From Candidatus Omnitrophota bacterium (GTDB lineage Bacteria; Omnitrophota; Gorgyraeia; Duberdicusellales; 4484-171): a stretch of 64,000 nt of DNA. Below the pieces are notes generated by a model. The model ran no database searches and was not told where the DNA came from. It was given only the letters and a program-made list of their open reading frames with translations. Both the position numbers and the translations under genes were made by a program. Where the stretch lies: the NCBI GenBank assembly GCA_024231025.1, contig JAAEQW010000274.1, positions 1,615-65,614 of the forward strand, read 5' to 3'. Shown piece by piece: positions 1-62,276 of this stretch (positions are counted from its first letter, which is position 1; every line of letters begins with the position of its first letter).

Positions 1-2919
1 CCTGATTGGAACACGCACCATAAATAGATTCTTAACCCGTTCAATCTGATCAGAAGAAGCCCTTCTCTTTTCAAGGTACTCCAACATAAAATTCTCAGCC
101 TTACCCGCTACAGTATCTCGCGTCAATTCAAGATCCAACCCTTCGGCCAAAAGAAGAACCGCCAAATACGCACATGCCAACTCAAGAGAAACCCCATGCT
201 TATTGTCTGCCTCCTGATTATCTTGATCATTAATCGGCAACAACTCTATCTTGGGATTTATCTGATCAATGACTCTATCAATTTGCCCAATAATATCTTC
301 CTCATTCTTTCCTGGAATCACACGTCCTTCCATCTCTTCAATCAGAGCAAAGAATATCCCTGCACGGCGAAATACTGCATACTGATCTTCGGTAGCAAAA
401 TGTATTGGCAAACGAGTATAAGGCACTTGTGGTTGCACCTGTCCTAATGGCAGTTTTAGAAACTCTTGAACATTAGCTTTTTTTGGCGACATACCAAAAA
501 AATCCACAATCTCTGCGTGACTATATCTTGGACAACCAAACCCTTCAGCCATTCGACAGGCAATCCTTTCTAAAGGACTAAACAATCCAGAAATCTCCTT
601 AAATCGCTCTAAGCTAAGCGGCATAAACCTTGAATCGTCATCACCTTCACTTTTTGTTGCTCCAATTTTTTCCGCCATAGAATCGAATACCTCTGCTAAA
701 GCTTGAAACCCAAGGTATGTTAAATTAGCTTCAGATAAGGCAAATTCTTTCGTTTTTTTTAATTGCTCTTTGTCCAAAGCTTTAGCGCTCTCTATCAAAC
801 TGGCAAGGGTTACTGCGCTTGAATATATATTAAGTAATTCGGTAGGAGTCGCTGTAGCTACTAACTTGAATAAATCTGGTCCATGAGAAGGATCTACCAA
901 GCTTGTTAAAGATAGAACTGCTCCTAAATCTGGTTCTACTGCTTTGGCCACAACAGTTTCCGTTATTTGTTTAGGACTACTTTTTTTTGATCGCTTAACC
1001 AACCGGGTGAACTCTCGATCCGCTTCACGAAAAATCTGCCGCTGCAGGATTCGTAATAAGTAATGTCGGCCCTGCGCGGTGGTTGAGTCAATAGATTCAA
1101 GATCATACGCCCAGCTTTCGTTCTGTGCCCGCAGCTTAGTGATTGCATAACTTACATCAATGAATTTGGCTTTATCTCCAACTAAAATTATCAATTCTTG
1201 CTTATCGCAATCAAATTGCATACCAAACTTTATTTCTGATCTCCATAAATAGTGCCCAATCTCATGAACCCGGGCAATAATATTTTTTGCGATCCGAATA
1301 TCGTAAGCAAGCAGCTTAGGACTGCAAGAAATAAACCCACGGTGGTTTCCTAAAGACTCATCGGAATCCTCGTAAAAAGATATTGGCACATTAGATGGAA
1401 AAAGATCAATTATTCCCTGAAGCAAGGATTTGTAGTCAGGAGAAGCAGCATCAACCATTTTTTTTCTTTCTTCTTTAGAAAAATTTGATTTAATTCGCCG
1501 CTCAAGAACTTTTAATTTAACTTTCCCCTTCTTAAATTTACTTCCCTTGGCAGGAGTAACTTCGGCAATAATAAAATGCGAATTTGCTTGTTCAAGATTT
1601 ATTTTCTCAAAATCATTACCAATAAAGTCTGAGCTTGCACTACCCTCTGGATGATCAAGTAAAGATAGAGGACCATTGTTTCCCAAAACCCGCAGATCTA
1701 CTTCGATTACGCCTGCCCCGGGTGCACCGTCATAACCGGGCATTGGTTTAGATGGGGTAGGGATCTGGGTAAAAACGGTTCCTCCGGAGAAGTATTTACG
1801 CCTTATGCGTTTGTTTGTAGGTGCGTTGTGGTCTTTTCTGATGTAGTTGTAGACACCTTTTTTGTAAGCCTGAAGATATTGGTTGTAAATCTTTTCTTTT
1901 ATTTTGGGGTCTGTGCCTTCGATCCCTTTGATTTTGTTTTTATCGAAATATACCTGATCCAATACCAATACTTCCGGGGACACGTACCGTTCTCGGCCTT
2001 CGGCCTGCGCTTCCGGTACATGTCCCCGTGTGTCAACTGAGCGCCGCAGGCGGCGCTTAAACCATGTGGCAAGAATTAAAGAATTGTAGATTTGCCGCAA
2101 ACGGGTAAATTGCTCTCCTTTGTTCACCTCTTCTTCAATTACAGGAAGAATGGTTTCTTTTGCGATTTGGGAAGAAACATTATCGGGCACGGCACGCCGT
2201 GCCCCTACGGGTTGGTTTATGGTCTGATTACGTTGCATAGCAACGTAATCTTCTTCCAACATAACTTTCAACGTCGCCTTACCAACAAACGCTTTGTTTT
2301 TATCCGTATAAATTAATACTTCATCTGGGGATATCCAAACTTTATTGAAAGTGTTAATGGGAATATCAGTAGTTTCGTAGAGATCTTGGGTTTTGGTATA
2401 AATTTTTTGCCAGTATTTTTTACCTAGGTCGCTTTCGGGATAAGTTAAAGAAGCGGACAATTGTTTTAGAATGTAGTCTTCGCCAAGGAGATCTCTTCCA
2501 ACGTCAGTTAAACCTAAATCATTAGGAGCAATCCTGTCTTCTTCGTATGGGGAAAGATTAACCCATAAATCCTCAGAAGGAATAGTAAGACCTGCTAAAA
2601 AATATCTGATCAACCTTTGGCTTTCCTCTTTAAATTCACTATCATTCAACTGGCGATCTCCTTCATCAATAATAAATCTGAATTTAAAAGGATCTTCGGG
2701 ATAAAACTCAATGCCTTGGATAGTTATTGGATGAATATGTTGACTGGTATTAATTAATTCGGTTGGCGCCGACATATAGGACAGGACAGAAGCATAGCCA
2801 ACACTAGCCTGATTTACGTAAATTGCTAACCCAGACAAAATCAGGCTACCGGCAAGAAAGACCCCTAAAGCTTTAAAACCAATACTAGCTTTGCGTTTTT
2901 GCAATAATTTTAAGATCAT
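1..2919 (-). CDS. Large membrane-anchored protein, partial (C-terminus runs off the window start). It has an N-terminal TM segment, a domain paralogous to the 59484-60983 protein, and a central HEIGH (HExxH) metallopeptidase-like motif.
   Basis: The minus-strand frame from ATG 2919 was checked codon by codon over 1201-1860, 2761-2919 and about 900-1260, with no stops. The HEIGHYLW motif is encoded at about 1230-1260. The DNA at 1840-1990 is near-identical to 59815-59940. The gene is absent from the ORF track only because it is truncated by the window edge. Confidence 0.5.
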   Translation of the reverse strand, partial: MILKLLQKRKASIGFKALGVFLAGSLILSGLAIYVNQASVGYASVLSYMSAPTELINTSQHIHPITIQGIEFYPEDPFKFRFIIDEGDRQLNDSEFKEESQRLIRYFLAGLTIPSEDLWVNLSPYEEDRIAPNDLGLTDVGRDLLGEDYILKQLSASLTYPESDLGKKYWQKIYTKTQDLYETTDIPINTFNKVWISPDEVLIYTDKNKAFVGKATLKVMLEEDYVAMQRNQTINQPVGARRAVPDNVSSQIAKETILPVIEEEVNKGEQFTRLRQIYNSLILATWFKRRLRRSVDTRGHVPEAQAEGRERYVSPEVLVLDQVYFDKNKIKGIEGTDPKIKEKIYNQYLQAYKKGVYNYIRKDHNAPTNKRIRRKYFSGGTVFTQIPTPSKPMPGYDGAPGAGVIEVDLRVLGNNGPLSLLDHPEGSASSDFIGNDFEKINLEQANSHFIIAEVTPAKGSKFKKGKVKLKVLERRIKSNFSKEERKKMVDAASPDYKSLLQGIIDLFPSNVPISFYEDSDESLGNHRGFISCSPKLLAYDIRIAKNIIARVHEIGHYLWRSEIKFGMQFDCDKQELIILVGDKAKFIDVSYAITKLRAQNESWAYDLESIDSTTAQGRHYLLRILQRQIFREADREFTRLVKRSKKSSPKQITETVVAKAVEPDLGAVLSLTSLVDPSHGPDLFKLVATATPTELLNIYSSAVTLASLIESAKALDKEQLKKTKEFALSEANLTYLGFQALAEVFDSMAEKIGATKSEGDDDSRFMPLSLERFKEISGLFSPLERIACRMAEGFGCPRYSHAEIVDFFGMSPKKANVQEFLKLPLGQVQPQVPYTRLPIHFATEDQYAVFRRAGIFFALIEEMEGRVIPGKNEEDIIGQIDRVIDQINPKIELLPINDQDNQEADNKHGVSLELACAYLAVLLLAEGLDLELTRDTVAGKAENFMLEYLEKRRASSDQIERVKNLFMVRVPIR

Positions 2920-6144: not shown

Positions 6145-6222
6145 ATTGTAGGGGCGGGCCCGTGTGTCCGCCCGTTATAATTCATTTTGTCCCGGGTCGA
6201 CACATAGGTCGACCCCTACAAT
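6145..6222. repeat. REP-like palindromic element, copy 1: TTGTAGGGG + hairpin, spacer, hairpin + CCCCTACAAT.
   Basis: GC-rich hairpins GGGGCGGGCC-cgtgt-GTCCGCCCG and CCCGGGTCGAC-acatag-GTCGACCC, flanked by inverted TTGTAGGGG/CCCCTACAA ends. Related copies lie at 41454-41660 and 60149-60251. Confidence 0.7.
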
Positions 6223-6277
6223 GTTTATTATTCCATGGATATGATTTGACATTATTACATAAATATAACCAGAAAGG

Positions 6278-51309: not shown

Positions 51310-52434
51310 ATGAGTTTTAAATTCACTACCGCCCTCAGTTTAAAAAGCGGCGAACAAGCTGCTAAAGAGATCTCTCTCAAAATAAAATCTGTTTTCCCTA
51401 AGGAAGCAAAATATGTAATTATCTTAGCTACCCCGCATTACCAGCCTCTCACCACCTTAAAGATATTAGATTTCACTCTCAAGCCAAAAAAATTAATGGG
51501 CCTACAGGCCCCTCTTTTGATTTTTGAAAGCGCAATTGTCAAAAAAGGCATGATCGGTTTATGCTTTGATCAAGAAGACGCAATCGTTAAGGATCTTCTC
51601 ACGCAAGATGTTTCAAGCCAAAGCATCGAATCGCTACTACGCTTAAAATCTAAGGATCTTAACGGGCCGCATCAATTTCTTTTTTCTTGTCTGCCGCCAG
51701 AAGTAAATTATTCGGACTACTTAAGGGGTGTTGAGCTTTCCTTAGGTAAAGCGTATAACGTATTCGGTGCCGGATTTATGAAAAAATATGCTTCTCGTCA
51801 ATTTCATATCACTAATGGCTCTGTTGACCAGGGGCTCTTTAACATAGCTGGAACCGATATTAAAATAGACACTCTAAACATTGGCGGCTATCTTCCGTTG
51901 GGAAGGCCTTTTGTAATTACTAAAGTCGTAAGCGATAAAGGGCTGATTATGGAGATAAATAATCGTCCCGCGATGGACATATATAAAAAATACTTTGAAG
52001 AAAAATTTGATGATTTAAAAAATCGAAACTTCTTTCCACTTTATCCTTTAGGCGTAAAAGAAAACGGAAATTATCGCATGATCAGCATTCTTAATTATCT
52101 CGAAGACGGCTCATTAATATGCCTCGGTGACGTAAAAGAAAATACACAAGCTCATTTTATGCTCTTGCATCAGCCCACACTATTTGAAACGATAGGCGAT
52201 GCGCTCAAACCAATAAGAAAAAATGGTGAGGGTCTAATATTTATGATAAACTCTATGTTGAGAAAGAAAATCCTTATGGATGGCGCAAGCGAAGAAGTGT
52301 ATCAGGTGAAACATCATTTAGGTGAAAAATTCAAAATAATCGGAATGTTTGCTGATTATATCATCTTTCCAAACAGAGAAAAAAGGGAAATTGGCATGGA
52401 TACCGGTAGTCTTTTAGTAACTTCCTGGAGGTAA
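51310..52434 (+). CDS. FIST-domain sensory protein.
   Basis: About 370 aa with FIST-N/FIST-C-like architecture, immediately upstream of a histidine kinase. Confidence 0.45.
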   Translation: MSFKFTTALSLKSGEQAAKEISLKIKSVFPKEAKYVIILATPHYQPLTTLKILDFTLKPKKLMGLQAPLLIFESAIVKKGMIGLCFDQEDAIVKDLLTQDVSSQSIESLLRLKSKDLNGPHQFLFSCLPPEVNYSDYLRGVELSLGKAYNVFGAGFMKKYASRQFHITNGSVDQGLFNIAGTDIKIDTLNIGGYLPLGRPFVITKVVSDKGLIMEINNRPAMDIYKKYFEEKFDDLKNRNFFPLYPLGVKENGNYRMISILNYLEDGSLICLGDVKENTQAHFMLLHQPTLFETIGDALKPIRKNGEGLIFMINSMLRKKILMDGASEEVYQVKHHLGEKFKIIGMFADYIIFPNREKREIGMDTGSLLVTSWR

Positions 52435-52442
52435 CTTAGTTT

Positions 52443-53900
52443 ATGGCTGGCGCAAACCCATTAGTTGCGGTTTTGTTCTTTTTTGTTGCAGTTATCGTTG
52501 TGCTTGTGTTTTACCTCTTTAGCAAGCTACAAACACTTTCAATACTGAAAAATACGATTACTCACTTAGAAAAAACCGTCACCGAGCTGGATCATCAAGC
52601 AAAATTAATCATCAAGGGCGATATGGAATTAAAGGTTTACCAGGAAGAGGTAGAAGACAAGATAGAAAAGCTAACCTTCCTTAAAAACCTGATTTTGTCT
52701 TCGGTACACATTCTTGACCGAGAGGACCTTTTCTGCCAGATTAATGACAAAATCATAAGCGACCTCGGATTTAAAAAAGGTATTCTTTTTGATTTTAGTA
52801 GCCTGGAACAAAAGGTCAATGTTGACTGCAGCAGTGAAGAAGTAAATACAATCAAAGATTTTCTTTTGCGCAAAAAACAAGCAATTACAACAAACCACCT
52901 TCTTTCTCGCGATTCAGAAATCTGCACAAAATTAGTATATGAATTAGGTTATGACGATTTTCTTATTGCCTCAATAAAGGCGCGCGAAAATGTTCACGCA
53001 ATATTCTTTCTAGCTAATACTGTTTTACCAGGAAATATTCGTATCGCCGAAAAAGAAATATTCTCAATTCTCTGCATGTATCTCGGCCAATGCTTAGACA
53101 ACATAACTCTTTTTGAGGATTTATATTTGGCTAAAGATGATCTTGAGAAAAAAATTCGCAGACGCACAGGCGAACTAGTTAAAAGCTTAAATGAAATTGA
53201 AATAATAAGTAAAACTAAATCTGATTTTATATCCAGCGTTTCACACGAATTGCGCACACCACTAACTTCGGTTAAAGGTTTTTCTTCTCTGTTAATAGCA
53301 GAAAAATTTGGAAAGCTCCCCGCAGAAGCTAAAACCCGCCTGGAAAAAATAGACATAAACGTAAATAAGCTCGTTGATATGGTAAATATGCTCTTGGATA
53401 TATCTCGCATAGAGTCAGGAAAAACGGAAGTAAAAATTGCCCCAGCAGATATTGTAAAATTAATCAAAGATATTTGTGATTTTCTATCTCCGCAAATACA
53501 GGCTAAAGAAATTACTCTTTCAACGGATACTCCAGAAAATTTAAGTGTATATATGGATAAAGGATTAATCGAACGCGTCTTGATTAATCTAATAAATAAT
53601 GCTTTAAAGTTTACACCTCAGGGAGGAAAAATTATAATTAGCTGTAAAAAAGAGGCAAAACAAGCAACGGTGTCGATTATTGATAACGGCTGCGGTATTC
53701 CAAAAAATGATATTGAAAAAATATTTGGAGAATTTTATAGGACCCAATTAACCAAAAACATTCAAGGAACAGGTCTTGGACTTTCTTTAGTAAAACGCAT
53801 TATTGACACACACAAAGAAAAAATATGGGTAGAATCTGAAATAGACAAAGGGGCCTCTTTTAATTTTACACTGAAACTGGAAGAGGCTAAGAATGTATAG
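52443..53900 (+). CDS. Membrane-anchored sensor histidine kinase.
   Basis: N-terminal TM helix, coiled coil, HisKA (SHELRTPLTSV) and HATPase (NALKFTPQGG, DNGCGIP, GTGLGLSLV). Confidence 0.8.
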   Translation: MAGANPLVAVLFFFVAVIVVLVFYLFSKLQTLSILKNTITHLEKTVTELDHQAKLIIKGDMELKVYQEEVEDKIEKLTFLKNLILSSVHILDREDLFCQINDKIISDLGFKKGILFDFSSLEQKVNVDCSSEEVNTIKDFLLRKKQAITTNHLLSRDSEICTKLVYELGYDDFLIASIKARENVHAIFFLANTVLPGNIRIAEKEIFSILCMYLGQCLDNITLFEDLYLAKDDLEKKIRRRTGELVKSLNEIEIISKTKSDFISSVSHELRTPLTSVKGFSSLLIAEKFGKLPAEAKTRLEKIDINVNKLVDMVNMLLDISRIESGKTEVKIAPADIVKLIKDICDFLSPQIQAKEITLSTDTPENLSVYMDKGLIERVLINLINNALKFTPQGGKIIISCKKEAKQATVSIIDNGCGIPKNDIEKIFGEFYRTQLTKNIQGTGLGLSLVKRIIDTHKEKIWVESEIDKGASFNFTLKLEEAKNV

Positions 53901-54822
53901 TTTAAAAATTTTAAGCGTTGATGACGACCCCGACATTTTAGATGTTATTTTAGCCACACTGGAAGGAGACTACCAGGTAGTGCAAGCATTAAACGGCAAA
54001 GACGCGATAGAAACCGCGAAAAAAGAATCTCCCGACCTATTAATTTTAGATTACAATCTTCCTGACATGCAAGGACCGGATATTTGCGCAATTTTAAGAA
54101 AAGATCCTCTTTTTCTAAACACCCCAATTTTAATGTTAACCGGTAAAGGTGAGATAGAAGACAAAGTAAAAGGGTTAGAAGCCGGCGTTGATGATTATAT
54201 GGTAAAACCTTTCGAACCGCAAGAATTGGTAGCTCGAGTGCGCATGCTAATCCGCCGCTCAACTATAAATTTAGATGCAAACCCATTAACTAGGCTGCCA
54301 GGAAACGTTTCAATCACCCGAGAGCTGGAAGATAAAATAAAGAATGAACGCGCATTTGCCGTTTTATACAATGACCTAGATAACTTCAAAGCCTTAAATG
54401 ATTACTATGGGTTTGATGCCGGCGATCACATTATTAAGGAAACTGCCCGAATTTTAGTTGCCGCAACCCAAGAAAAAGGCACCGTAAAAGACTTTGTTGG
54501 CCACATCGGCGGAGATGATTTTGTGATTATAACAAAGCCAGAAAATGCTGAAGGGCTTGCCAAGAAAATTATTGCTGATTTTGACAAACTTGCCCCAAAT
54601 CTTTTTGACGAAAAAGACAGAGTAAAAGGTTTTATCGAAACTAAGGGCCGCGATGGGTTAATTCATAAATTTGGCTTTCCCACAATTTCGATTGGGATCA
54701 TTACCACCGATACCCGTGAATTTACTCATGTGGCTGAAGTTAGTTCGGTTGGAGCCGAACTTAAAAAGCTCGCCAAAAAATTTGAAGAAAGCAAATATGT
54801 AGTTGACCGCCGAAATATCTGA
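53893..54822 (+). CDS. Response regulator with a receiver and a GGDEF domain bearing a degenerate GGDDF active-site motif.
   Basis: REC motifs (ILSVDDDP, DLLILDYNLPD), GGDEF-domain HIGGDDFVII and no RxxD I-site. Confidence 0.75.
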   Translation: MYSLKILSVDDDPDILDVILATLEGDYQVVQALNGKDAIETAKKESPDLLILDYNLPDMQGPDICAILRKDPLFLNTPILMLTGKGEIEDKVKGLEAGVDDYMVKPFEPQELVARVRMLIRRSTINLDANPLTRLPGNVSITRELEDKIKNERAFAVLYNDLDNFKALNDYYGFDAGDHIIKETARILVAATQEKGTVKDFVGHIGGDDFVIITKPENAEGLAKKIIADFDKLAPNLFDEKDRVKGFIETKGRDGLIHKFGFPTISIGIITTDTREFTHVAEVSSVGAELKKLAKKFEESKYVVDRRNI

Positions 54823-54970: not shown

Positions 54971-57900
54971 TTAGTACGGTTTACTTTTGCGGCGGATGCG
55001 TGTGATTTCAAGACGAAAGCCAGTGATCGCAGCAGGATCAATATCAATGAATTCCTGCGCAACAACGGGGACATGTACCGCCTGCCTGCCGGACGGGCAG
55101 GGAAGCCCCGACAAAGTCGGGGATCGGTGCGCGTCCCCGGAAGACACAAAAGAACCGGAGCGTTCTTCATCTATTTCAATCATTTCAGAATTAAGATCAA
55201 TGCCGCCAGAAATGATAGTTTTAGATGAGGCACCGGCATTTTGATTTCTGGCGACTCGTGCCGATACAGCTGAAGACAATTCTTCTTTTACATGAGAATA
55301 GAACATCTCCTCGTATCTACCCCATTCATTCTTTTTGTGATTTTCATATTCATCAACTATTTCTAAAAGTTGCTCAACACTCATCTGCTCAATCACCCAT
55401 GCATGATACAGGGTAAGCTGCGTTTCATTTTGGCTGAAATATTTTTTCTGACGCTGGGCCGCAACATGATGGGGTTGCCCCTCGATGCGTTCGGTGTATT
55501 CATGATCAATTACCTCACCCAAAGCAAAGAATGTAAAATTGTCTTGATTAATATAATTTGAATTAAGAATTATTGATAAAGTGCCGTCGATTTCTTTTCT
55601 GCCGGCAGCGTCCATAGTCTCAGGTAGATGATCGGATAAATACACATTGATCTTTTGCTTATCAAGCTTATCGGCATCTTCCATTCCTACCAAAGGGGAT
55701 TTTAGAAATTTAACAAGCTCATTCTTATCAAATGACAATTCTCGCTCAGGATTAATCAAAGCATTAAATTGATCATCGGTAAATTTTGGTTTGGCTACAT
55801 CACCAACCCTGCGGCTAGGGCGTTTAAGGGCAACCGGAAAATTCTTTACTTTGCCTTCATCTTCTAACTTGACGACATCGATAACCGGCACATTAAGATG
55901 AAAAATATCACTTTTTTTAATACCTTCTGAAGGCTGCTCACCCAAGGGGATCGGCTGTGCCCGACCTCTTTGTTTTTTCCGTTTTTTGTTCCGATGTTTA
56001 TTTTTTTCTTGCGATCTCTTTCTTTTGGTGTTATTAGCTCCTTCTTTCACCCCTATTTCTTGTTTAAGTCTTTTATACCGTTTGGAATTTACCGGTAAAA
56101 ATATTATGACATCTTCATATCTAACAACACCCTTAACTTCCTCTACCGCCCGAACATCCTCAAGCGTAAGTTCTTTATTGCCGGAACTAGCAACTTTTTT
56201 CTTCACCACCAATGAAAATGCCTTTTCAAAAATTGTAATATAGGAAAAAGAATCTCTACTGGAAGTTACAACTATAGTAGGAAAATCTTTAATGCTTCCT
56301 TCTTCTAAAGCGTCAAAAAGATAATTTACTAATTTAACAGCGAAGTTCGCTGAATAACAAGCTCCGATAATTATTACTAAGTCTGATAAAGTGCCGACTT
56401 TAGCTGCCCGCTTCATCAAAGCCTCACCGTACTCTTGATAGCTAATTGCCCAAGGGTGCTCCATTTTGTCACTTACTTCTCTTCCTAGCTTCCCACCTCT
56501 CAACCACAAATGCTCTGGGCCGCCATGCTTATGATGCCAAAGTACGTTATTTTTATCATTAATAGGTATGTTAGGCACTGTCTTCTCAAGAAATTTAATT
56601 TTATCTTCGACGCCTTCAAACCGATTTTCTTGATCAATGGTAACGCCTAAAGGCTTTACTATATCTTCTAACTGCTCGCCAGTAAAATCTTTATCAACAT
56701 GAGTATACGCATACACCGAAGATCCTTTCTGAATAAGCGCTCTTCGTTTGTTCGCTTCATCAAAAGTCTCAACTATAAAAAATAGTGCTTTCTCAATCGC
56801 TATCGCTTGTCGCAAATTGTAATTATCCTCTGTGGAAAGTTGGATATCAAAACGTTCCAAAAGAAGCACAACTGACTTAGCCAAAGAAAACTGATTGGCA
56901 TATTTTTTACTAAATGCTAAAGGGAGCGTTTTCGCAATAAAAGCACTATTAAGATATACTGCCCTTACTTCATCAATTGAAAAATTACCTCTACCAATTT
57001 CTGATGATCGCCAAAAAATATTCTGCCAAAAAGGATCAAGAGTACTCGTAACCTCTTCCATTTGCTCATAATTTAACTTCATCGCAATTACATATAAAAC
57101 TCTACTCGCAGCCTCACGAAGTTCCTTATTCTCAGACTCTAGTGCCCTAAAAAGCTTCTCAAACAAAGTATCACCAATTAAGCGAAATCCACTTGATATG
57201 TTTCCATGGTTGGTTTTTCCTTGCAAAGATTTTAGAAAAGGAGGCACAAGAACATCCCTAAGATATTCAATATCACGTAAATGCGCACCGGACATAACTT
57301 CTATTACTAATTTTGCTGTTTTTTGATTCAACTCCTTATTTTCTGAAGCTAAAGTTTCAATAAAAATCTTAAAAACTTCAACAGTCAATATTGATCCCAT
57401 TTCAGTTAACCTCATTCGGGATCGATCCCTATTTTTCTTCTTGTTATCCTCTAGGCTATCAATAAGTGCTAATGCGGCTTTTTGACGCATGGATTTAAAA
57501 GTTGTGCTATCTGTAACTGGTTTTTTAAACATATTACCTAAACCCTCAATAGCCATAAATCGCATTTTGCTATCATTATGCTTTAAGGTCTTCATAGCAC
57601 TAGAGAAAACGTCTTCTGCTATCGTGGTGGATAAATCCTCGTAAATATCAGCGAATATATGTCCTAGACCAATTGTGGCAAACGAATTGCCTTGATTAAT
57701 TGCTGTAATTAACATTGGAATAAGTTTTTGCTCAATAACCCTAGCTTTTACTTGCGTAGAACACAGCCCTTCCATAGCCATCGCAGCAACATCTCTTACA
57801 TATTCTTCTTTAGCCAGCAGACCATGCAGCCCTATAGCAACAACAATTTCGGTTCTACGGTTTTTGTTTTTTTCCCCTTTAAGAACTTTTGCGATTTTCG

Positions 57901-59527
57901 ATAGCTCTTTGGATAATCTTGAAAGAACATCAAAATCTTGATCATTACGCAACAGTTGTAAAAAGTCGTCGAGAAATCCTTTTGCAGCAGGATTAATCCA
58001 AACTGATGCAGAGATTGCCGCGCTACGAACTTCGCCATCTTGCGAAGAATCTTTCGCTATTCTAAGCAATTCTTTGGTTAATTTTTTCTTTAAAGTAAAA
58101 CCAACATTCTTTGCTAAAAGACCTAAATTATCTATAACCACCTGGCGAAAACCCGCCGGCTCAGAAGTGCTATTTGCTATGGCTCTCAAACCCTCAATGA
58201 GATTAGTCATTTCTTTTAATATTTTTTTTGCCTCAAGGCTATTCTTATTAGATTCGCTTTGATAAGCCTGAATCATTATTTTTTTTGCCATATAAAGCGC
58301 TCTAAGGCGAATTTTTGGATTTTGAATTGGTTCTTGGGCGATATCACCTAAAGACTGCGCAACTTCTTTCAACGCACCCCAAGATTCTCCATCAATAATC
58401 TCTCGTAATAATTTCGCAACCATTTCACGAAAAGCAACTTCCTGAGAATCGCTAGATAACTCTTGCATAATTGAAAGAAATACATCAATCACTTCTAACT
58501 TACGCGATAAGGAAAACCTATAAACATCTTTAAGAAATGTTTTATCAAAAATAATTGCTGCAATTTCACGAATAACAGGATCTAAAGACGAATCGTTAAG
58601 CAAAGGCAGCAAATCTAAAATTGCTTTTTCTTTTCTTGAACGTTTTTGATTCTTGATCAATTCACCCCAAGAAGCTAAGGCCTCGGCACGAATAACTGGC
58701 TTTGCGCCTTCGTCACAGACAACATTATAAAGTACAGAAATAAGTTCTTGTCTGCGCTTGAAACCAATTTTGCTTTTTAGAGAAGAAAAAGTTATTCGCA
58801 AAGCAAGAACACCAAACGCCTCAACAGATGAACTTTGCAATTGCCCTTTTACTACCTCAATAAGATCGTTGAAAACATTCTGCTGTGCGTCTAGCTCCAT
58901 ATCTTTCAGTATTTTCTCTAGTGTTGGTCCAAAGAAATCAGCAATGGACCAAAAAGCAGAATTACGCTTTAATTCAACTATAAAAAAGGAAACTAGTCTT
59001 TCTTTAAATTCATTTGAAAATTTATCGACCCCTGAATCCAAAATATCAAGCAATGCCGCGCTGATATCCCTTCTTATAATTTGAATCGACGTAGAAATGC
59101 CCGGATTTTTTAGCGACTCCTCTAGCGAACCTAAAAGAACAATGGCTATCCGCTCTCTAGTAGCTAAATCTACTTTTGCTCGTAAAATCATTAAAGAATC
59201 TGTAGCCGCCGTGATAAGAACTTGAGATTGAGGATAGTCTTTTATTATGCTAAGAAAAAGATCAACGATCTCCTTTGACGGTGAAATAACAATCTCGCTC
59301 AAAAGCTTCATGGCTTTTACCCGTTGATCCAAACTTGAAAAAATATCATCTTTTACTATTCCGATAAGAACTGGAGTAATTTCTTTGGCAAGATCTTCAT
59401 CAACTTGGGCAGGATTAAGATCTAACACATCCTCTCTTAAGGTAACTTCTTCTTCAGGCGCAAAACGCTCAACGGCTTGCGAATTAGAGAGTTCTTTCAA
59501 GCTTGAGGCGCAACCAAACACCATCAC
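54971..59527 (-). CDS. Giant (1518 aa) HEAT/ARM-repeat protein with a KR-rich linker and a C-terminal degenerate HExxH-like domain (DHEYTE).
   Basis: Long alpha-helical repeat region with no stops. The C-terminal segment aligns with the HEIGH region of the 1-2919 protein but reads IDHEYTERIEG. The 3' end of the ORF (about 55040-55150) runs through GC-rich REP-like hairpins. Confidence 0.5.
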   Translation of the reverse strand: MMVFGCASSLKELSNSQAVERFAPEEEVTLREDVLDLNPAQVDEDLAKEITPVLIGIVKDDIFSSLDQRVKAMKLLSEIVISPSKEIVDLFLSIIKDYPQSQVLITAATDSLMILRAKVDLATRERIAIVLLGSLEESLKNPGISTSIQIIRRDISAALLDILDSGVDKFSNEFKERLVSFFIVELKRNSAFWSIADFFGPTLEKILKDMELDAQQNVFNDLIEVVKGQLQSSSVEAFGVLALRITFSSLKSKIGFKRRQELISVLYNVVCDEGAKPVIRAEALASWGELIKNQKRSRKEKAILDLLPLLNDSSLDPVIREIAAIIFDKTFLKDVYRFSLSRKLEVIDVFLSIMQELSSDSQEVAFREMVAKLLREIIDGESWGALKEVAQSLGDIAQEPIQNPKIRLRALYMAKKIMIQAYQSESNKNSLEAKKILKEMTNLIEGLRAIANSTSEPAGFRQVVIDNLGLLAKNVGFTLKKKLTKELLRIAKDSSQDGEVRSAAISASVWINPAAKGFLDDFLQLLRNDQDFDVLSRLSKELSKIAKVLKGEKNKNRRTEIVVAIGLHGLLAKEEYVRDVAAMAMEGLCSTQVKARVIEQKLIPMLITAINQGNSFATIGLGHIFADIYEDLSTTIAEDVFSSAMKTLKHNDSKMRFMAIEGLGNMFKKPVTDSTTFKSMRQKAALALIDSLEDNKKKNRDRSRMRLTEMGSILTVEVFKIFIETLASENKELNQKTAKLVIEVMSGAHLRDIEYLRDVLVPPFLKSLQGKTNHGNISSGFRLIGDTLFEKLFRALESENKELREAASRVLYVIAMKLNYEQMEEVTSTLDPFWQNIFWRSSEIGRGNFSIDEVRAVYLNSAFIAKTLPLAFSKKYANQFSLAKSVVLLLERFDIQLSTEDNYNLRQAIAIEKALFFIVETFDEANKRRALIQKGSSVYAYTHVDKDFTGEQLEDIVKPLGVTIDQENRFEGVEDKIKFLEKTVPNIPINDKNNVLWHHKHGGPEHLWLRGGKLGREVSDKMEHPWAISYQEYGEALMKRAAKVGTLSDLVIIIGACYSANFAVKLVNYLFDALEEGSIKDFPTIVVTSSRDSFSYITIFEKAFSLVVKKKVASSGNKELTLEDVRAVEEVKGVVRYEDVIIFLPVNSKRYKRLKQEIGVKEGANNTKRKRSQEKNKHRNKKRKKQRGRAQPIPLGEQPSEGIKKSDIFHLNVPVIDVVKLEDEGKVKNFPVALKRPSRRVGDVAKPKFTDDQFNALINPERELSFDKNELVKFLKSPLVGMEDADKLDKQKINVYLSDHLPETMDAAGRKEIDGTLSIILNSNYINQDNFTFFALGEVIDHEYTERIEGQPHHVAAQRQKKYFSQNETQLTLYHAWVIEQMSVEQLLEIVDEYENHKKNEWGRYEEMFYSHVKEELSSAVSARVARNQNAGASSKTIISGGIDLNSEMIEIDEERSGSFVSSGDAHRSPTLSGLPCPSGRQAVHVPVVAQEFIDIDPAAITGFRLEITRIRRKSKPY

Positions 59528-60983
59528 AGCTACAGCAAAATAAAAAAATTCCGGCGTTACGTAGCGATTTTTTCTTATCGTGTTTAGGCTCCTCCTTTAA
59601 CCCGCTGTCCACCGCATAAGTATCGGCAGGTTTACTTTGGCGAAGAAACTCACCGTTTGCATCAATGCCTGAAATCGGTCCGTTAGCTTTAGTGGAAATA
59701 ACCGAATTGATTGGTTCTTCAACTTCTTGCAGGCATTGTTCGTTTTCTCTTGCGTCAAAACCACCGGAATAATAACGCCGGTTAATTTTGCGATTTAATT
59801 TTTCGTCAAAATCAGGTCGAATATAATTATAAACGCCCTTTTTGTAGGCCTCGACATATTGATTGTAGATCTTTTCTTTTATTTGGGGATCCGTGCCTTC
59901 GATCCCTTTGATTTTGTTTTTATCGAAATATATCTTGTCTAATATATTTTTGTTTTTATCCCGGGAGGACACAAGGCCCTCCCCTACTGAGCGGCGAAGC
60001 CGTTTTTTAAACCATGTAGCAAGGATTAAGGCATTATAAATTTGGCGCAGGCGCGCAAATTGCTGGCCCTTGTTGATTTCTTCTTCAATCACCGGCAAAA
60101 TCATTTCCTTTGCAATCTGGGCGGATAATTTGTTGATATTATGATCATTTGTAGGGGCGGACCTATGTGTCCGCCCGTTATGATTAATTATATGATTATC
60201 GTATAATTCATTATTTTGACCCGGGTCGACACATAGGTCGACCCCTACAATATTTTGTTTTTGGGCAACATAGTCACTCTCCATCATCACCTTGAAACTG
60301 CTTTCTTTAACGAAAGCGCGATTGCCTTCAACTGAAACAACTGCTTTATCGGGGATAATCCAAATTTTGTTAAAGGTATCAATCGCAATGTTGGTTGTGC
60401 CGTAAAGCTCATTAGCGCGAGCGTAAATTTTCTTCCAGAATTTTTTGCCTAAAGGGCTTTCTGGATAAGTCAAAGAAGCGGTCAATTGTTTTAAAATATA
60501 ATCCTCACCCAAAAGATCGCGCCCCATGTCAGTTAACCCTAATTCGTGAGGAGTTACTCTATCTTTCTCATAGGGAGAAAGATTCACCCATAAGTCTTGT
60601 GCTGGAGTAGTTAATGAAGCTAAAAAATATTTAATCAATCGATGTGCTTCAATCTTAAATTCCTGATCATCTACGGCAGTATCGCCCTCATCAAGAGTAA
60701 AACGAAAAGCGAAAGGATCGTTGGGAAAAAATTCTAAACCACGCAATAATATTGGATTAAAATGCGAACTAGTCTCAATAATTTTTGTTGGAGCCGACAT
60801 ATAGGGCAAGGCAGAGGCATAGCTTGTATTTGTCTTAACAAAATAGGCAGCAACCGTCGAAAACAAAATGGCTAAAATCACAAAGCCAACGATTGCCTTA
60901 AAAGAGATTGATCCTTTTTTCCGCTGTATAAAAATTCCCATAATGATATACCTGTAACTTAGACTATCATTTAAATGTAACAT
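59484..60983 (-). CDS. Membrane-anchored protein paralogous to the N-terminal 500 aa of the 1-2919 gene. It may be the frameshifted 5' part of a single gene with 54971-59527.
   Basis: DNA at 59815-59940 is near-identical to 1840-1990. The protein motifs YMSAPT, VNLSPYE, GLTD(V/M)GRDLLGEDYILKQL and KNKIKGIEGTDP(K/Q)IKEKIYNQY are shared. It overlaps the next ORF by 44 nt. Confidence 0.5.
   Translation of the reverse strand: MLHLNDSLSYRYIIMGIFIQRKKGSISFKAIVGFVILAILFSTVAAYFVKTNTSYASALPYMSAPTKIIETSSHFNPILLRGLEFFPNDPFAFRFTLDEGDTAVDDQEFKIEAHRLIKYFLASLTTPAQDLWVNLSPYEKDRVTPHELGLTDMGRDLLGEDYILKQLTASLTYPESPLGKKFWKKIYARANELYGTTNIAIDTFNKIWIIPDKAVVSVEGNRAFVKESSFKVMMESDYVAQKQNIVGVDLCVDPGQNNELYDNHIINHNGRTHRSAPTNDHNINKLSAQIAKEMILPVIEEEINKGQQFARLRQIYNALILATWFKKRLRRSVGEGLVSSRDKNKNILDKIYFDKNKIKGIEGTDPQIKEKIYNQYVEAYKKGVYNYIRPDFDEKLNRKINRRYYSGGFDARENEQCLQEVEEPINSVISTKANGPISGIDANGEFLRQSKPADTYAVDSGLKEEPKHDKKKSLRNAGIFLFCCSCDGVWLRLKLERTL
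60149..60251. repeat. REP-like element inserted in-frame within the 59484-60983 coding sequence.
   Basis: TTGTAGGGGCGGACC-tatgt-GTCCGCCCG ... CCCGGGTCGAC-acatag-GTCGACCCCTACAAT. The ORF stays open and the element is translated as ...NHNGRTHRSAPTNDH... Confidence 0.65.
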
Positions 60984-61154: not shown

Positions 61155-62276
61155 ATGCACAAAATTATAACTCGCCAAATTCAGGAAAATATCGAAAAAC
61201 ACCTTTTCAAGGGAAAAGCAATCATTCTTTACGGTGCAAGACAAACCGGAAAAACAACACTCGTTTCAATGATAAAGGAGAAACACAAAAATTCTTTATA
61301 CCTTAATTGTGACGAAATAGATATTCGAGAAAAATTAACCAAAAAAACCTCTACTGAACTTGCAACGCTAATTGGCAATAAAAAACTAGTAGTAATTGAT
61401 GAAGCCCAGCGCGTTGTTGACATTGGCTTAACAATAAAAATACTTGTTGATACAATGAAAGACACCCAAATAATCGCAACTGGCTCATCTTCCTTTGAGT
61501 TATCAGATAAAATTAAGGAGCCACTAACCGGACGCGTTTATGAATTCCATCTTTATCCTTTCAGTTTTAACGAACTAAACAGCCTCTATCAAAAACATGA
61601 ACTCGAACGCATCGTCGAGCAACGCATGGTTTACGGAATGTATCCGGAAGTTGTGCTGTCTCAGGAAAAAGAAATCCTTCTGCAACTAGCTGATAGTTAC
61701 CTGTATAAGGATATTCTTGCTTACCAAAACATCAAAAGCCATGACATACTGATTAAATTGCTTCAAGCAATTTCTTTACAAATCGGCAACGAAGTGTCTT
61801 ATAACGAGTTATCTTCAACGGTGGGTATCGATAAAAAAACTGTTGAAAACTACATAAATATTTTAGAAAAAGCGTTTATTGTTTTTCGGTTAAATCCTTT
61901 TAGCAGAAACCTGCGCAATGAGCTCAAAAAACTGCGAAAAATCTATTTCTACGATCTTGGTATAAGAAACGCACTAATAAATAATTTTAATCCTCTGGGC
62001 ATCCGTCAAGATACCGGCGCTTTATTTGAAAATTTTGTTATTGCTGAAAGAATAAAACGTAATAGCAACTTACGTCTAAGAAAGAACTTTTATTTTTGGA
62101 GAACGCATCAACAGAAAGAAATAGATTACATAGAAGAAGAAGCTGGGATATTAAAAGGTTACGAAATAAAATTTTCAAAAACTAAATTCAAGGCGCCTCA
62201 AGAATTCCTAAAAGCATACAAGGACAGTTCCGTTGAACTGGTAAACAAAAGTAATTGCTTAGAATTCATTACATAG
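61155..62276 (+). CDS. AAA+ ATPase with a DUF4143 domain.
   Basis: Walker A motif GARQTGKTT and Walker B motif VVIDEAQ. Confidence 0.7.
   Translation: MHKIITRQIQENIEKHLFKGKAIILYGARQTGKTTLVSMIKEKHKNSLYLNCDEIDIREKLTKKTSTELATLIGNKKLVVIDEAQRVVDIGLTIKILVDTMKDTQIIATGSSSFELSDKIKEPLTGRVYEFHLYPFSFNELNSLYQKHELERIVEQRMVYGMYPEVVLSQEKEILLQLADSYLYKDILAYQNIKSHDILIKLLQAISLQIGNEVSYNELSSTVGIDKKTVENYINILEKAFIVFRLNPFSRNLRNELKKLRKIYFYDLGIRNALINNFNPLGIRQDTGALFENFVIAERIKRNSNLRLRKNFYFWRTHQQKEIDYIEEEAGILKGYEIKFSKTKFKAPQEFLKAYKDSSVELVNKSNCLEFIT

What the first reader, a model, noticed from the sequence alone, without database searches (positions are those of the whole stretch)
54971..60983. Paralogous giant proteins: one compact with an intact HExxH, one split and expanded by a HEAT-repeat block of about 1100 aa with a degenerate metal site
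The gene at 1-2919 encodes a TM anchor plus a conserved N-domain, directly followed by a HEIGH metallopeptidase-like domain. At 59484-60983 plus 54971-59527, the same N-domain (near-identical DNA at 59815-59940 versus 1840-1990) is followed by a 44-nt overlap, then a 1518-aa ORF. That ORF is mostly HEAT/ARM repeats, has a KR-rich linker, and has a C-terminal segment aligning to the HEIGH region but reading DHEYTE. The pattern suggests neofunctionalisation of a surface or envelope peptidase into a non-catalytic scaffold, with possible programmed or accidental frameshifting between the two ORFs.
Basis: partly seen in the sequence, partly recalled or inferred. Interest (0 to 1): 0.55.

Follow-up and report, generated by a model that had tools for sequence, protein, structure and literature searches.

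The report
Frameshift-split modular Omnitrophota envelope protein
The two adjacent genes are almost certainly one roughly 2,000-residue gene broken by a one-base slip, and it belongs to a very large, unnamed Omnitrophota protein family that places a conserved head and a conserved tail around interchangeable middle parts, so it is not a decayed metalloprotease.

Summary
The shared N-domain is real: 56% identity over 401 aa, E=2e-157. The interpretation mostly fails.

- **Family.** The N-domain is the head of a huge Omnitrophota family (more than 4,000 hits, no Pfam or NCBIfam model). Members have a signal peptide, an N-cap, variable cargo and a ~65-aa C-cap (GGIDLNP…).
- **One gene.** In other genomes, 62 of 69 complete members carry both caps in one ORF. 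Here ORF1 has the N-cap and ORF2 the C-cap. Both frames are open across an A6 and a T7 run, and removing one base gives a 2,003-aa ORF. The cause is a single-base indel, either an assembly error or a recent mutation.
- **HEIGH.** This is not a conserved zincin motif; its domain reads HExx[E/H], with E in 18 of 23 copies.
- **DHEYTE.** This is the intact consensus of a different domain. That domain sits in the same slot but shows no significant similarity to the HEIGH domain (hhalign E≈0.1).
- **Protease.** ORF2 also holds a caspase-fold domain with its His/Cys dyad intact, so it is not shown to be non-catalytic.
- **geneA.** It runs off the window, so "compact" is unproven.

The parts
1..2919 (-). 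geneA: 5' part (973 codons, no stop in the window) of a paralog of the N-cap/C-cap family. Order: signal peptide, N-cap, HExx[E/H] domain, then unannotated sequence.
   Evidence: Translation. BLASTP to ORF1 56% over 401 aa, E=2e-157. More than 4169 homologs of the N-domain. No Pfam, NCBIfam, PDB, PADLOC or PHROGs match.
1774..2772 (-). geneA N-cap domain (aa ~50-382). It follows a Sec-type signal peptide (aa ~17-45, ...GYA|S).
   Evidence: The signal peptide is inferred by eye from the sequence and from AxA sites in homologs.
955..1635 (-). geneA HExx[E/H] domain (aa 429-655). HEIGH lies at aa 552-556 (window 1252-1266) and the downstream conserved HYLLRxLQRQxF…D…T motif follows.
   Evidence: HMM built from homolog segments hits geneA 433-649 at E=1e-21. 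Of 23 copies, 18 read HExxE and 5 read HExxH.
59484..60983 (-). ORF1 (GenBank MCP4653049.1 / GY858_06675, annotated from Met15 at 60941). It holds the signal peptide, the N-cap (aa ~63-408, window 59760-60797) and a linker. Its last ~20 codons are out-of-frame read-through.
   Evidence: AlphaFold2 model of aa 15-420: pLDDT 82, pTM 0.79. No significant structural match in the PDB; best E=0.35.
59487..59596 (-). Junction where the ORF1 and ORF2 frames are both open. It contains an A6 run (59568-59573) and a T7 run (59542-59548) on the coding strand. Deleting one base in either run joins the ORFs.
   Evidence: Sequence and three-frame translation. The T7 deletion gives a 2003-aa ORF with no internal stop. 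The A6 alternative was read from the sequence by hand and was not computed.
59510..59548 (-). Hydrophobic segment with a lipobox (…IFYFAVAVMVFG|C…). In the fused protein it is an internal signal-peptide-like or transmembrane segment. No ATG, GTG or TTG lies upstream of it in the ORF2 frame.
   Evidence: The same feature occurs in single-ORF homologs: lipobox pattern 0.245 versus 0.015 per 1000 aa, about 16-fold enriched after the N-cap.
54971..59527 (-). ORF2 (GenBank MCP4653048.1 / GY858_06670, annotated from the TTG at codon 10). It is the cargo plus C-cap part of the same gene.
56891..59440 (-). HEAT/ARM-like helical repeat region (aa ~30-879). Only aa ~302-815 is supported by Pfam.
   Evidence: HEAT_2 at 447-537, E=1.7e-9. 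HEAT at 789-815, E=8.5e-5. HEAT_EZ and Vac14_Fab1_bd are weak. The outer boundaries are inferred.
56018..56890 (-). Caspase-fold (clan CD-like) cysteine peptidase domain, aa 880-1170. Putative dyad: His1001 (56525-56527) and Cys1057 (56357-56359).
   Evidence: More than 120 homologs. In the 131-row profile consensus H, G, C and S are conserved (...gHGg … iiiDaCyS). In the separate 24-sequence alignment Cys is invariant and His-Gly at least 90% conserved. The model is confident, and Foldseek hits caspase-11, -9, -7, -6, -3, MALT1 and Raptor at E down to 1.6e-4, probability 1.0, TM (target) ~0.5. Pfam Peptidase_C13 matches two homologs only below threshold.
55913..56080 (-). Lys/Arg-rich linker (aa ~1150-1205), predicted disordered.
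   Evidence: Sequence. pLDDT below 50 for model residues 308-365.
55253..55846 (-). Domain Y (aa ~1228-1425), carrying D-H-E-Y-T-E (aa 1341-1346, window 55490-55507), the downstream His in '…GQPHH…AAQRQKKYF' and 'LYH.W'.
   Evidence: Homologs P0122 (52% identity), P0125, P0127, P0151, P0243 and P0254. Invariant residues E, D, H, E, E, H, R, F, L, H, Y, E are all kept in ORF2. The predicted structure is confident: three strands, then the motif helix, then further helices. No PDB or BFVD match could be obtained.
54974..55210 (-). C-cap domain (aa ~1440-1518; GGIDLNS…ITGFRLEITRI), interrupted by a 25-aa insert.
   Evidence: An HMM from 71 homolog C-termini hits this single place in the six-frame window. 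It scores 20.1 bits, or 26.5 bits without the insert; the best of 200 shuffles scores 7.6 bits.
55066..55139 (.). GC-rich palindromic element inserted in frame in the C-cap. Its arms, CGGGGACATGTACCG, are shared with the element in geneA at 1975-2028.
   Evidence: 4 arm matches against 0.18 expected by chance.
60151..60248 (.). Palindromic element (26-nt arms, AT-rich loop) inserted in frame in the variable loop of ORF1's N-cap. A related arm lies at 6148-6173.
   Evidence: It lies in the low-confidence loop (model residues 234-263) of the N-cap model.

Best explanation
ORF1 and ORF2 are the two halves of one gene of about 2,003 codons. The gene belongs to a very large, uncharacterised protein family of Candidatus Omnitrophota.

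Family members have four parts: a Sec-type signal peptide; a conserved N-terminal domain of about 330 aa ("N-cap", ending R-K-Y-F-S-G-G); a freely exchangeable middle part; and a conserved C-terminal domain of about 65 aa ("C-cap", GGIDLNP…GF.PVI..I.P). In this member the middle part reads, in order: an internal lipobox-type hydrophobic segment, about 850 aa of HEAT-like repeats, a caspase-fold cysteine peptidase domain with His1001 and Cys1057, a Lys/Arg-rich disordered linker, and a small H-E-x-x-E…H domain (domain Y).

The reading frame is broken by a single-base length change in an A6 or T7 run between the N-cap and the hydrophobic segment. This is either a sequencing or assembly error in the MAG or a recent inactivating mutation; the two cannot be told apart without reads.

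geneA at the window edge is simply another paralog with different cargo. Its HEIGH is a minority variant of an HExx[E/H] domain that recurs next to the caps in this family.

What is shown: the family architecture, the paralogy, the frame geometry, the caspase fold and dyad, and the conservation of the domain Y motif.

What is inferred:
- The protein is exported and associated with the envelope.
- The HEAT array acts as a binding platform for the caspase-like protease, in a separase/Raptor/TPR-CHAT-like arrangement.
- The HExx[E/H] modules bind a metal.
- The caps serve sorting, anchoring or assembly.
For: - The N-cap HMM and BLAST find exactly two copies in the window, ORF1 and geneA.
- The C-cap HMM finds exactly one, the end of ORF2: 20-26 bits against at most 7.6 bits for 200 shuffles.
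- In 79 loci from other genomes, 62 of the 69 N-cap ORFs that end inside the locus carry the C-cap in the same ORF. Four of the seven exceptions were examined: one G7 frameshift (L064), two in-frame stops (L034, L056) and one assembly gap (L012).
- Of seven paralogs from the same MAG, six show the GG[IV]D[FL] C-terminal motif in one ORF.
- Single-ORF relatives show the same order. P0140 has N-cap, weak HEAT hits, caspase-like domain, HExxE domain, C-cap. P0100, P0209 and P0218 have the same order without HEAT hits. P0177 adds a lipobox after the N-cap. P0122 is 57% identical to ORF1's N-cap and 52% to ORF2's domain Y plus C-cap.
- ORF2's frame is open upstream to a TAA and encodes the first half of the hydrophobic segment, but has no start codon there. 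Deleting one T gives an uninterrupted 2,003-aa ORF.
- Caspase fold: Foldseek E=1.6e-4, probability 1.0, with conserved HG and ACyS.
- Domain Y keeps all of its family's invariant residues.
Against: - No reads and no second assembly of this organism are available, so the indel cannot be confirmed. ORF2 has no close relative in 15 billion proteins other than itself and P0122.
- An AAGGAGG lies 9-12 nt upstream of ACG/ATA codons in the ORF2 frame, so independent translation from a non-canonical start is conceivable.
- About 6% of family members in other genomes are also split, which could mean that split forms are tolerated.
- The export topology is inferred, not predicted with a dedicated tool. 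An internal signal-peptide-like segment after an exported N-cap is topologically awkward.
- No function of either cap is known. The N-cap has no structural relative in the PDB.
Confidence: 0.8

Rival explanations
1. One reading: a surface metallopeptidase (geneA type, intact HExxH) was duplicated. One copy was expanded by insertion of a HEAT block, lost its metal site (DHEYTE) and became a non-catalytic scaffold.
For: - The N-domain is shared.
- Both proteins carry an H-E-x-x-[E/H] motif in a helix.
- The DHEYTE domain sits where HEIGH-type domains sit in relatives.
- A weak common pattern, H..A.RQ..F…LT, is aligned by hhalign.
Against: - The HEIGH-type domain reads HExxE in 18 of 23 copies, so HExxH is not its defining motif.
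- No peptidase model in Pfam or NCBIfam matches it.
- DHEYTE equals the invariant consensus of its own family rather than a decayed copy.
- There is no significant similarity between the two domains: the HMM gives no hit and hhalign gives E≈0.1.
- The N-cap is fused to hundreds of unrelated cargoes, so different cargo does not imply insertion into a geneA-like ancestor.
- ORF2 retains a caspase-fold domain with its dyad.
Confidence: 0.06
2. ORF1 and ORF2 are two genuine, separately translated genes in an overlapping operon pair: an N-cap-only protein, and a HEAT-caspase lipoprotein or cytoplasmic protein that starts at a non-canonical codon or at the GTG/ATG at 59527/59524.
For: - GenBank annotates them separately.
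- An AAGGAGG motif lies upstream in the ORF2 frame.
- The lipobox segment would suit an N-terminal signal peptide.
- L056 in another genome has an in-frame stop followed directly by ATG.
Against: - No ATG, GTG or TTG lies upstream of the hydrophobic core. Starting at GTG or ATG leaves only M(M)VFGC, too short for a signal peptide.
- The AAGGAGG also simply encodes K-E-E in the ORF1 frame.
- ORF1's last ~20 residues (IFLFCCSCDGVWLRLKLERTL) look like out-of-frame read-through.
- 90% of family members are single ORFs.
- Identical lipobox segments occur internally in single-ORF relatives.
Confidence: 0.1
3. The break is functional. Programmed +1 ribosomal frameshifting, transcriptional slippage or phase variation at the U7/A6 tract controls production of the full-length protein.
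For: - The frames switch inside a stretch holding two homopolymers.
- U UUU UUA is a classic slippery heptamer in ORF1's phase.
- Another family member (L064) is split at a G7 run.
- Large paralogous families of surface proteins are typical contingency loci (general knowledge).
Against: - The heptamer would shift to the −1 frame, which is full of stops. ORF2 is in the +1 frame.
- No stimulatory stop or rare codon follows.
- No relative shares the junction, so there is no conservation.
- Runs of 7 or more are common here (83 in 64 kb) and are not enriched after the N-cap across the family: 0.41 per kb against 0.36-0.47 per kb elsewhere.
Confidence: 0.05

Closest known systems
Large and giant multidomain membrane-associated proteins of Omnitrophota ('Archaeovorin'-type; bioRxiv 10.1101/2023.11.21.568195 and 10.64898/2026.06.07.730766; PMC10066038)
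   Same: - Same phylum.
- N-terminal signal peptide or transmembrane segment, plus further internal hydrophobic segments.
- Long unannotated stretches.
- The same unusual repertoire of cytoplasm-type domains behind an export signal (HEAT_2, radical SAM, methyltransferase, GNAT, receiver, PPDK_N, starch synthase). Compare.
   Different: - Those papers treat proteins of 10,000 aa and more. In the passages I searched they do not describe a conserved N-cap or C-cap.
- The present family is mostly 600-1,700 aa, though P0122 reaches 4,029 aa.
- Whether the giants carry these caps was not tested here.
Clan CD cysteine peptidases joined to helical-repeat arrays (separase C50; Raptor's caspase-like domain; TPR-CHAT proteases)
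   Same: - Caspase/hemoglobinase fold by Foldseek, including a Raptor hit.
- β-strand followed by His-Gly and β-strand followed by Ala-Cys.
- Placed next to a long α-solenoid.
   Different: - No Pfam family (C13, C14, CHAT, C50) reaches threshold, and there is no sequence hit to PDB chains.
- It sits in an exported or envelope context with N- and C-caps.
- Specificity and activity are unknown.
Zincin-type metallopeptidases (HExxH; gluzincins, metzincins)
   Same: - An H-E-x-x-[H/E] motif on a helix that follows a small β-sheet, with a further conserved His downstream.
- Domain Y reads HE[WY][TS]E..x.G..H, which resembles the metzincin HExxHxxGxxH. This resemblance is recalled from memory and read by eye, not tested.
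   Different: - The second His is usually Glu.
- No peptidase model or solved structure matches by sequence.
- The fold of the geneA domain was not predicted. The fold of domain Y could not be searched separately from the rest of the model.
Modular 'conserved ends, variable middle or tip' protein families (polymorphic toxins, autotransporters, T9SS C-terminal-domain cargo)
   Same: - A conserved terminal module or modules combined with highly diverse cargo.
- Many paralogs per genome, often in tandem.
   Different: - Both ends are conserved here.
- The cargo is mostly housekeeping-type enzymes and repeat arrays rather than toxins.
- No immunity genes, β-barrel or known sorting motif were found.
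- There is no match in PADLOC or PHROGs.
Rickettsia palindromic elements (in-frame selfish repeats inside genes)
   Same: GC-rich palindromic elements inserted in frame in surface loops of proteins, with copies elsewhere in the genome.
   Different: A different sequence family and a different phylum. Only a few copies were seen in this window. The comparison rests on recalled literature.

Membership tests
Omnitrophota N-cap/C-cap modular family (unnamed; defined here) | N-terminal conserved domain of about 330 aa ending R-[KR]-Y-[FY]-S-G-G, preceded by a signal peptide | tested here: met
   ORF1 and geneA are 41-57% identical to 73 homologs, with 34 invariant columns. The signal peptide was judged by eye only.
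Omnitrophota N-cap/C-cap modular family (unnamed; defined here) | C-terminal conserved domain of about 65 aa (GGIDLNP…GF.PVI..I.P) within 50-125 aa of the stop | tested here: met
   The ORF2 tail scores 20.1 bits, or 26.5 without the palindromic insert, against at most 7.6 for 200 shuffles. It is the only hit in the six-frame window. For geneA this is not testable because its end is outside the window.
Omnitrophota N-cap/C-cap modular family (unnamed; defined here) | Both caps in one open reading frame | tested here: not met
   They are split over two frames with a 44-nt overlap. 62 of 69 relatives have both in one ORF. The ORF is restored by a 1-nt deletion.
Zincin metallopeptidases (HExxH) | Conserved HExxH zinc-binding motif across the domain family | tested here: not met
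   geneA-type domain: HExxE in 18 copies and HExxH in 5 of 23. Domain Y: invariant HExxE.
Zincin metallopeptidases (HExxH) | Match to a curated peptidase model or to a solved zincin by sequence | tested here: not met
   There were no Pfam or NCBIfam hits at E≤1. There were no meaningful PDB sequence hits at E≤10; the only matches to the domain Y profile, at E≈1, are to unrelated chains.
Zincin metallopeptidases (HExxH) | Zincin fold (β-sheet, active-site helix, helix bearing the third ligand) | tested here: inconclusive
   The domain Y model is confident and shows three strands followed by the motif helix. Foldseek output for the multi-domain model was filled by caspase hits, and BFVD gave nothing.
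HEAT/ARM repeat proteins | Pfam HEAT-type model above its curated cut-off | tested here: met
   HEAT_2 scores 38.3 bits against a cut-off of 27.7, E=1.7e-9, at aa 447-537. Other HEAT-type hits fall below their cut-offs.
Clan CD cysteine peptidases (caspase fold) | Caspase/hemoglobinase fold | tested here: met
   Foldseek against the PDB hits caspase-11, -9, -7, -6, -3 and MALT1 at E=1.6e-4 to 1e-2, probability 0.9-1.0, TM (target) 0.43-0.56. Domain pLDDT is about 90.
Clan CD cysteine peptidases (caspase fold) | Catalytic His (His-Gly) and Cys (Ala-Cys), each after a β-strand, conserved in the family and present in ORF2 | tested here: met
   In the 24-sequence alignment Cys is invariant and His and Gly are at least 90% conserved. 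H, G, C and S are conserved in the 131-row profile consensus. ORF2 has His1001-Gly1002 and Ala1056-Cys1057. Spatial juxtaposition was not inspected.
Clan CD cysteine peptidases (caspase fold) | Membership of a named family (C13, C14, CHAT, C50…) by curated model | tested here: not met
   ORF2 has no such Pfam hit. Two homologs hit Peptidase_C13 below the cut-off, at 16-19 bits against 22.8.
Bacterial lipoproteins (signal peptidase II substrates) | Lipobox after a hydrophobic core, at the N-terminus of a translated product | tested here: inconclusive
   The PROSITE-type lipobox pattern fits (MVFG|C). However, no start codon precedes the hydrophobic core in ORF2's frame, and in relatives the segment is internal.
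Programmed ribosomal frameshift sites | A slippery site that leads into the downstream frame, with a stimulator and conservation | tested here: not met
   U UUU UUA would give a −1 shift into a closed frame; ORF2 is +1. No related junction exists. Homopolymers are not enriched there.

The most novel reading that the evidence does not exclude
The N-cap and C-cap define an undescribed, Omnitrophota-wide system for exporting, anchoring or delivering cargo. Its features:
- A conserved exported head with no matched fold. The only, non-significant, Foldseek neighbours are ClyA-type pore formers.
- A conserved tail.
- Between them, interchangeable cargo, often cytoplasm-type enzymes that still carry their own internal Sec, lipoprotein or Tat-like signal peptides.
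- Flanking HExx[E/H] and caspase-like modules that could process the cargo. One candidate cleavage site is the Lys/Arg-rich linker.

Such a system could be the building principle behind the phylum's giant proteins and its proposed host-dependent lifestyle. The in-frame palindromic inserts and occasional homopolymer breaks would then be part of how the family diversifies.
Probability: 0.25. Interest if true: 0.75.

Novelty: new variant of a known kind. Interest (0 to 1): 0.45.

Why it matters
For this locus, the practical result is an annotation correction. GY858_06675 and GY858_06670 should be treated as one frameshifted gene. Neither the "intact" nor the "degenerate" HExxH label is justified.

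The wider result is the family itself:
- It has thousands of members, and at least nine paralogs were seen for this MAG.
- No Pfam or NCBIfam model covers either cap.
- The N-cap model is confident but has no structural relative in the PDB.
- Cytoplasm-type enzymes and repeat arrays are routinely sandwiched between the two caps, sometimes with intact-looking internal signal peptides.

Omnitrophota are uncultured ultrasmall bacteria suspected of predatory or parasitic lifestyles, and their large proteins are an open problem. A defined N-cap/C-cap architecture gives a concrete handle for classifying those proteins and for testing how they are exported and processed.

Tried and rejected
- **Direct comparison of geneA with ORF2.** BLASTP gave only a marginal hit (E=0.011, geneA 836-909 versus ORF2 892-1002). 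The caspase-domain profile does not hit geneA, so I treat that hit as chance.
- **HEIGH/DHEYTE homology.** I tested it with an HMM and twice with hhalign, and none was significant.
- **Word-based homolog search.** ORF2 found only itself, and its C-terminal 639 aa found nothing. The exhaustive HMMER search was needed.
- **PDB sequence searches.** geneA, the ORF2 C-terminal part and the profiles of domain X, domain Y and the N-cap gave nothing meaningful.
- **PADLOC and PHROGs.** Nothing was found.
- **Foldseek.** The N-cap gave no significant hit, and the ClyA-family neighbours at E≥0.35 are treated as noise. BFVD with the ORF2 model, tried in the hope of a domain Y match, gave nothing.
- **Looking for a second assembly.** The genome-contig scan with ORF2 and the exact-sequence contig lookup both found nothing. 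I skipped a metagenome scan because the closest relative among 15 billion proteins is only 52% identical.
- **A short N-cap homolog (P0034).** I checked it as a possible natural split form, but its contig looks like a mirror-image misassembly and was uninformative.
- **Phase-variation idea.** I tested it through homopolymer density and found no enrichment.
- **Search for a hairpin with GTAGGGGC and GCCCCTAC ends 14 nt apart.** The pattern had no matches in the window.

Full report
**1. What is in the sequence**

Three minus-strand ORFs match the finding.
- geneA lies at 1-2919. It has 973 codons and no stop, so it continues beyond the window.
- ORF1 lies at 59484-60983 (499 aa).
- ORF2 lies at 54971-59527 (1518 aa, GTG start).
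- ORF1 and ORF2 overlap by 44 nt.

ORF2 is GenBank MCP4653048.1 (GY858_06670, annotated from a TTG at codon 10). ORF1, from Met15, is MCP4653049.1 (GY858_06675). Both are "hypothetical protein" in a Candidatus Omnitrophica MAG, on a 102,827-bp contig.

The two N-terminal regions are clearly paralogous: 56% identity over 401 aa, E=2e-157. The DNA is only about 70% identical. The best block, 59821-59935 versus 1841-1955, is 86% identical with one 40-nt exact run. "Near-identical DNA" is therefore overstated.

HEAT repeats, the KR-rich linker, HEIGH (geneA aa 552) and DHEYTE (ORF2 aa 1341-1346) are all present.

**2. The N-domain is the head of a very large family**

The search with geneA returned more than 4,169 significant proteins among the 8,000 candidates scored. 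Nearly all named ones come from Omnitrophota, and none has a Pfam model covering the shared region. NCBIfam, PADLOC, PHROGs and PDB sequence searches were also empty.

The homologs share only the first ~350-400 residues. Behind that, the precomputed Pfam annotations include radical SAM, phosphofructokinase, protein kinase, methyltransferases, GNAT, transketolase, PGK, DnaJ/FHA, receiver, M48, TPR and HEAT.

Inspection of 120 homologs showed a second conserved element. A GG[IV]D[FL] motif lies 48-125 aa before the C-terminus in 71 of them; most of the rest appear to be fragments on short contigs. I call these two elements the N-cap and the C-cap.

The N-termini look like Sec signal peptides with AxA sites (sequences). 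This was judged by eye, not with a predictor.

**3. ORF1 and ORF2 are one family member**

- In the six-frame translation of the whole window, the N-cap occurs twice (ORF1 and geneA). The C-cap HMM, built from 71 homologs, hits once, at the end of ORF2.
- The ORF2 tail scores 20.1 bits, and 26.5 bits after removing a 25-aa insert. The best of 200 shuffles scores 7.6 bits.
- In 79 loci from other species-representative genomes, all labelled Omnitrophota or mislabelled "Planctomycetales", 69 N-cap ORFs end inside the locus and 62 of them carry the C-cap in the same ORF.
- I examined four of the seven exceptions: a frameshift at a G7 run (L064), two in-frame stops (L034, L056) and an assembly gap (L012).
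- Of seven paralogs from the same MAG, six show the C-terminal motif in a single ORF.
- The closest relative of ORF2's C-terminal part, P0122 (4,029 aa), starts with an N-cap 57% identical to ORF1's. It ends with a domain Y plus C-cap 52% identical to ORF2's.
- P0140 has N-cap, weak HEAT hits, caspase-like domain, HExxE domain and C-cap in one ORF. P0177 adds a lipobox segment after the N-cap.

**4. The junction**

The ORF2 frame is open upstream to a TAA at 59597-59599. It reads …IRKNRYVTPEFFYFAVAVMVFGCASS, which is a hydrophobic core plus a lipobox. No ATG, GTG or TTG precedes that core.

The ORF1 frame reads …KHDKKKSLRNAGIFLFCCSCDGVWLRLKLERTL*. The stretch where both frames are open (59487-59596) contains an A6 run (59568-59573) and a T7 run (59542-59548).

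Deleting one T gives a 2,003-aa ORF that reads …KKKSLRNAGIFYFAVAVMVFGCASSLKE…. Read by hand, deleting one A from the A6 run would also join the frames.

Signal-peptide-like segments at exactly this position occur in about 20 single-ORF homologs. They include lipobox, Sec AxA and Tat-like SRRxFLK types. The lipobox pattern is about 16-fold enriched in the 160 aa after the N-cap.

The U UUU UUA heptamer is in phase for a −1 shift, but the −1 frame is closed and ORF2 is in the +1 frame. Runs of 7 or more are common in this window (83 in 64 kb). Across the family they are not enriched after the N-cap.

I conclude that the break is a plain single-base indel, either an assembly error or a recent mutation. 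I cannot tell which without reads, and no second assembly exists in the collections I could search.

**5. The HEIGH and DHEYTE claims**

An HMM of the domain around HEIGH, built from homolog segments, hits geneA aa 433-649 at 1e-21. In 23 copies the motif is HExxE 18 times and HExxH 5 times. A second conserved block, HYLLRALQRQxF…D…LT, follows. No peptidase model matches. HEIGH is therefore a minority variant, not a conserved zincin signature.

The exhaustive HMMER search with ORF2 aa 880-1518 separated two domains. Domain Y (aa ~1228-1425) has relatives in P0122 (two copies), P0125, P0127, P0151, P0243 and P0254. Its invariant pattern is E..DHE..E…H…R…F…L…H…YE, and ORF2 keeps every invariant residue. 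DHEYTE is therefore the consensus of its own family, not a decayed HExxH.

Sequence tests for homology between the two domain types fail. The HMM gives no hit, and hhalign gives E≈0.1 and probability 0.6%.

Domain Y sits in the slot, between the caspase-like domain and the C-cap or directly after the N-cap, that HExx[E/H] domains fill in relatives such as P0100, P0140, P0209, P0218, P0134, P0176 and P0010. The two may be analogous or very distant relatives. This needs structures.

**6.

ORF2 aa 880-1170 has more than 120 homologs. The 131-row profile consensus conserves H, G, C and S (…gHGg… and …iiiDaCyS). In a separate 24-sequence alignment the Cys is invariant and His-Gly is at least 90% conserved.

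The AlphaFold2 model of aa 880-1518 is confident for this domain and for domain Y; the linker and C-cap are disordered. Foldseek against the PDB returns caspase-11, -9, -7, -6, -3, MALT1 and Raptor's caspase-like domain at E down to 1.6e-4 and probability 1.0.

ORF2 has His1001 and Cys1057. Pfam family membership is not reached; Peptidase_C13 matches two homologs only below threshold. HEAT arrays followed by this domain recur in P0123, P0128 and P0140. The "non-catalytic scaffold" reading is therefore not supported.

**7. The N-cap fold**

The model of ORF1 aa 15-420 is good (pLDDT 82, pTM 0.79). It has no significant match in the PDB; the best hit is E=0.35, and several ClyA-family pore-forming toxins recur among the insignificant hits. 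I treat this as no match.

**8. Literature**

The papers I could search describe Omnitrophota giant proteins. These have many transmembrane segments, long unannotated N-terminal regions and the same odd set of enzyme and repeat domains. I found no description of the N-cap/C-cap family. This is a limited search, not proof of absence.

**9. Verdict**

- Right: paralogy and a frameshift-split gene.
- Wrong: an intact versus a degenerate HExxH, neofunctionalisation into a scaffold, and programmed frameshifting.

The locus itself is an ordinary broken copy. The family it belongs to is uncharacterised and unusual. How the caps work remains inference.

Noticed in passing
window 60151-60248 (ORF1), 2180-2205 and 1975-2028 (geneA), 55066-55139 (ORF2), 6148-6273 (intergenic): GC-rich palindromic elements sit in frame inside coding sequence of a 37% GC genome. 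One (26-nt arms, AT-rich loop) lies in the disordered loop of ORF1's N-cap, with a related arm in an intergenic region. Two share the arms CGGGGACATGTACCG, and one of these splits ORF2's C-cap. The 'VGARRAVP' hairpin occurs at the same loop in P0070 from another genome. This behaviour resembles the Rickettsia palindromic elements.
   Followed up: partly
homologs P0018, P0019, P0007, P0060, P0059, P0177, P0198, L070 (lipobox); P0040, P0042 (Tat-like SRRxFLK); P0021, P0058, P0094, P0104, P0110 (Sec AxA): Single-ORF family members carry intact-looking internal signal peptides 20-100 aa after the N-cap. The lipobox pattern is about 16-fold enriched there. This looks as if secreted proteins were captured whole behind the N-cap. 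The resulting topology is unexplained.
   Followed up: partly
loci L002-L080 (e.g. L054, L055, L019, L064, L058): Family genes often lie in tandem: there are 97 N-cap ORFs in 79 loci. About 6% are broken: L064 by a frameshift at a G7 run, and L056 and L034 by in-frame stops.
   Followed up: yes
window 1-2919 (geneA): Its neighbours on the contig have GenBank proteins, but no protein identical to geneA appeared in the homolog search. geneA may therefore be annotated as a pseudogene or left unannotated, and its 3' end lies outside the window.
   Followed up: no
geneA 1913-1952 versus ORF1 59893-59932: The two paralogs share a 40-nt exact run although they are only about 70% identical in DNA overall. 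This could be strong constraint on the KIKGIEGTDP…KEKIYNQY segment or a small gene-conversion tract.
   Followed up: no
window 51310-54822 and 3157-4563: Both family genes sit next to signalling genes. Near ORF2 there is a FIST protein, a histidine kinase and a receiver-GGDEF. Near geneA there is a receiver-PAS-HD_5 (HD-GYP-like) protein. A DUF4143 AAA ATPase lies upstream of ORF1 (61155-62276).
   Followed up: no
P0122 (4029 aa), P0010 (1336 aa): HExx[E/H]-type or Y-type domains occur twice in some members, once right after the N-cap and once right before the C-cap. They bracket the cargo, which suggests a processing or assembly role for these modules.
   Followed up: partly
L001 (ENA contig ctg35418, 101,820 bp): The gene order is mirrored around the N-cap gene (PALP, sigma-70, VWA … VWA, sigma-70, PALP). 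This is most likely a palindromic misassembly.
   Followed up: no
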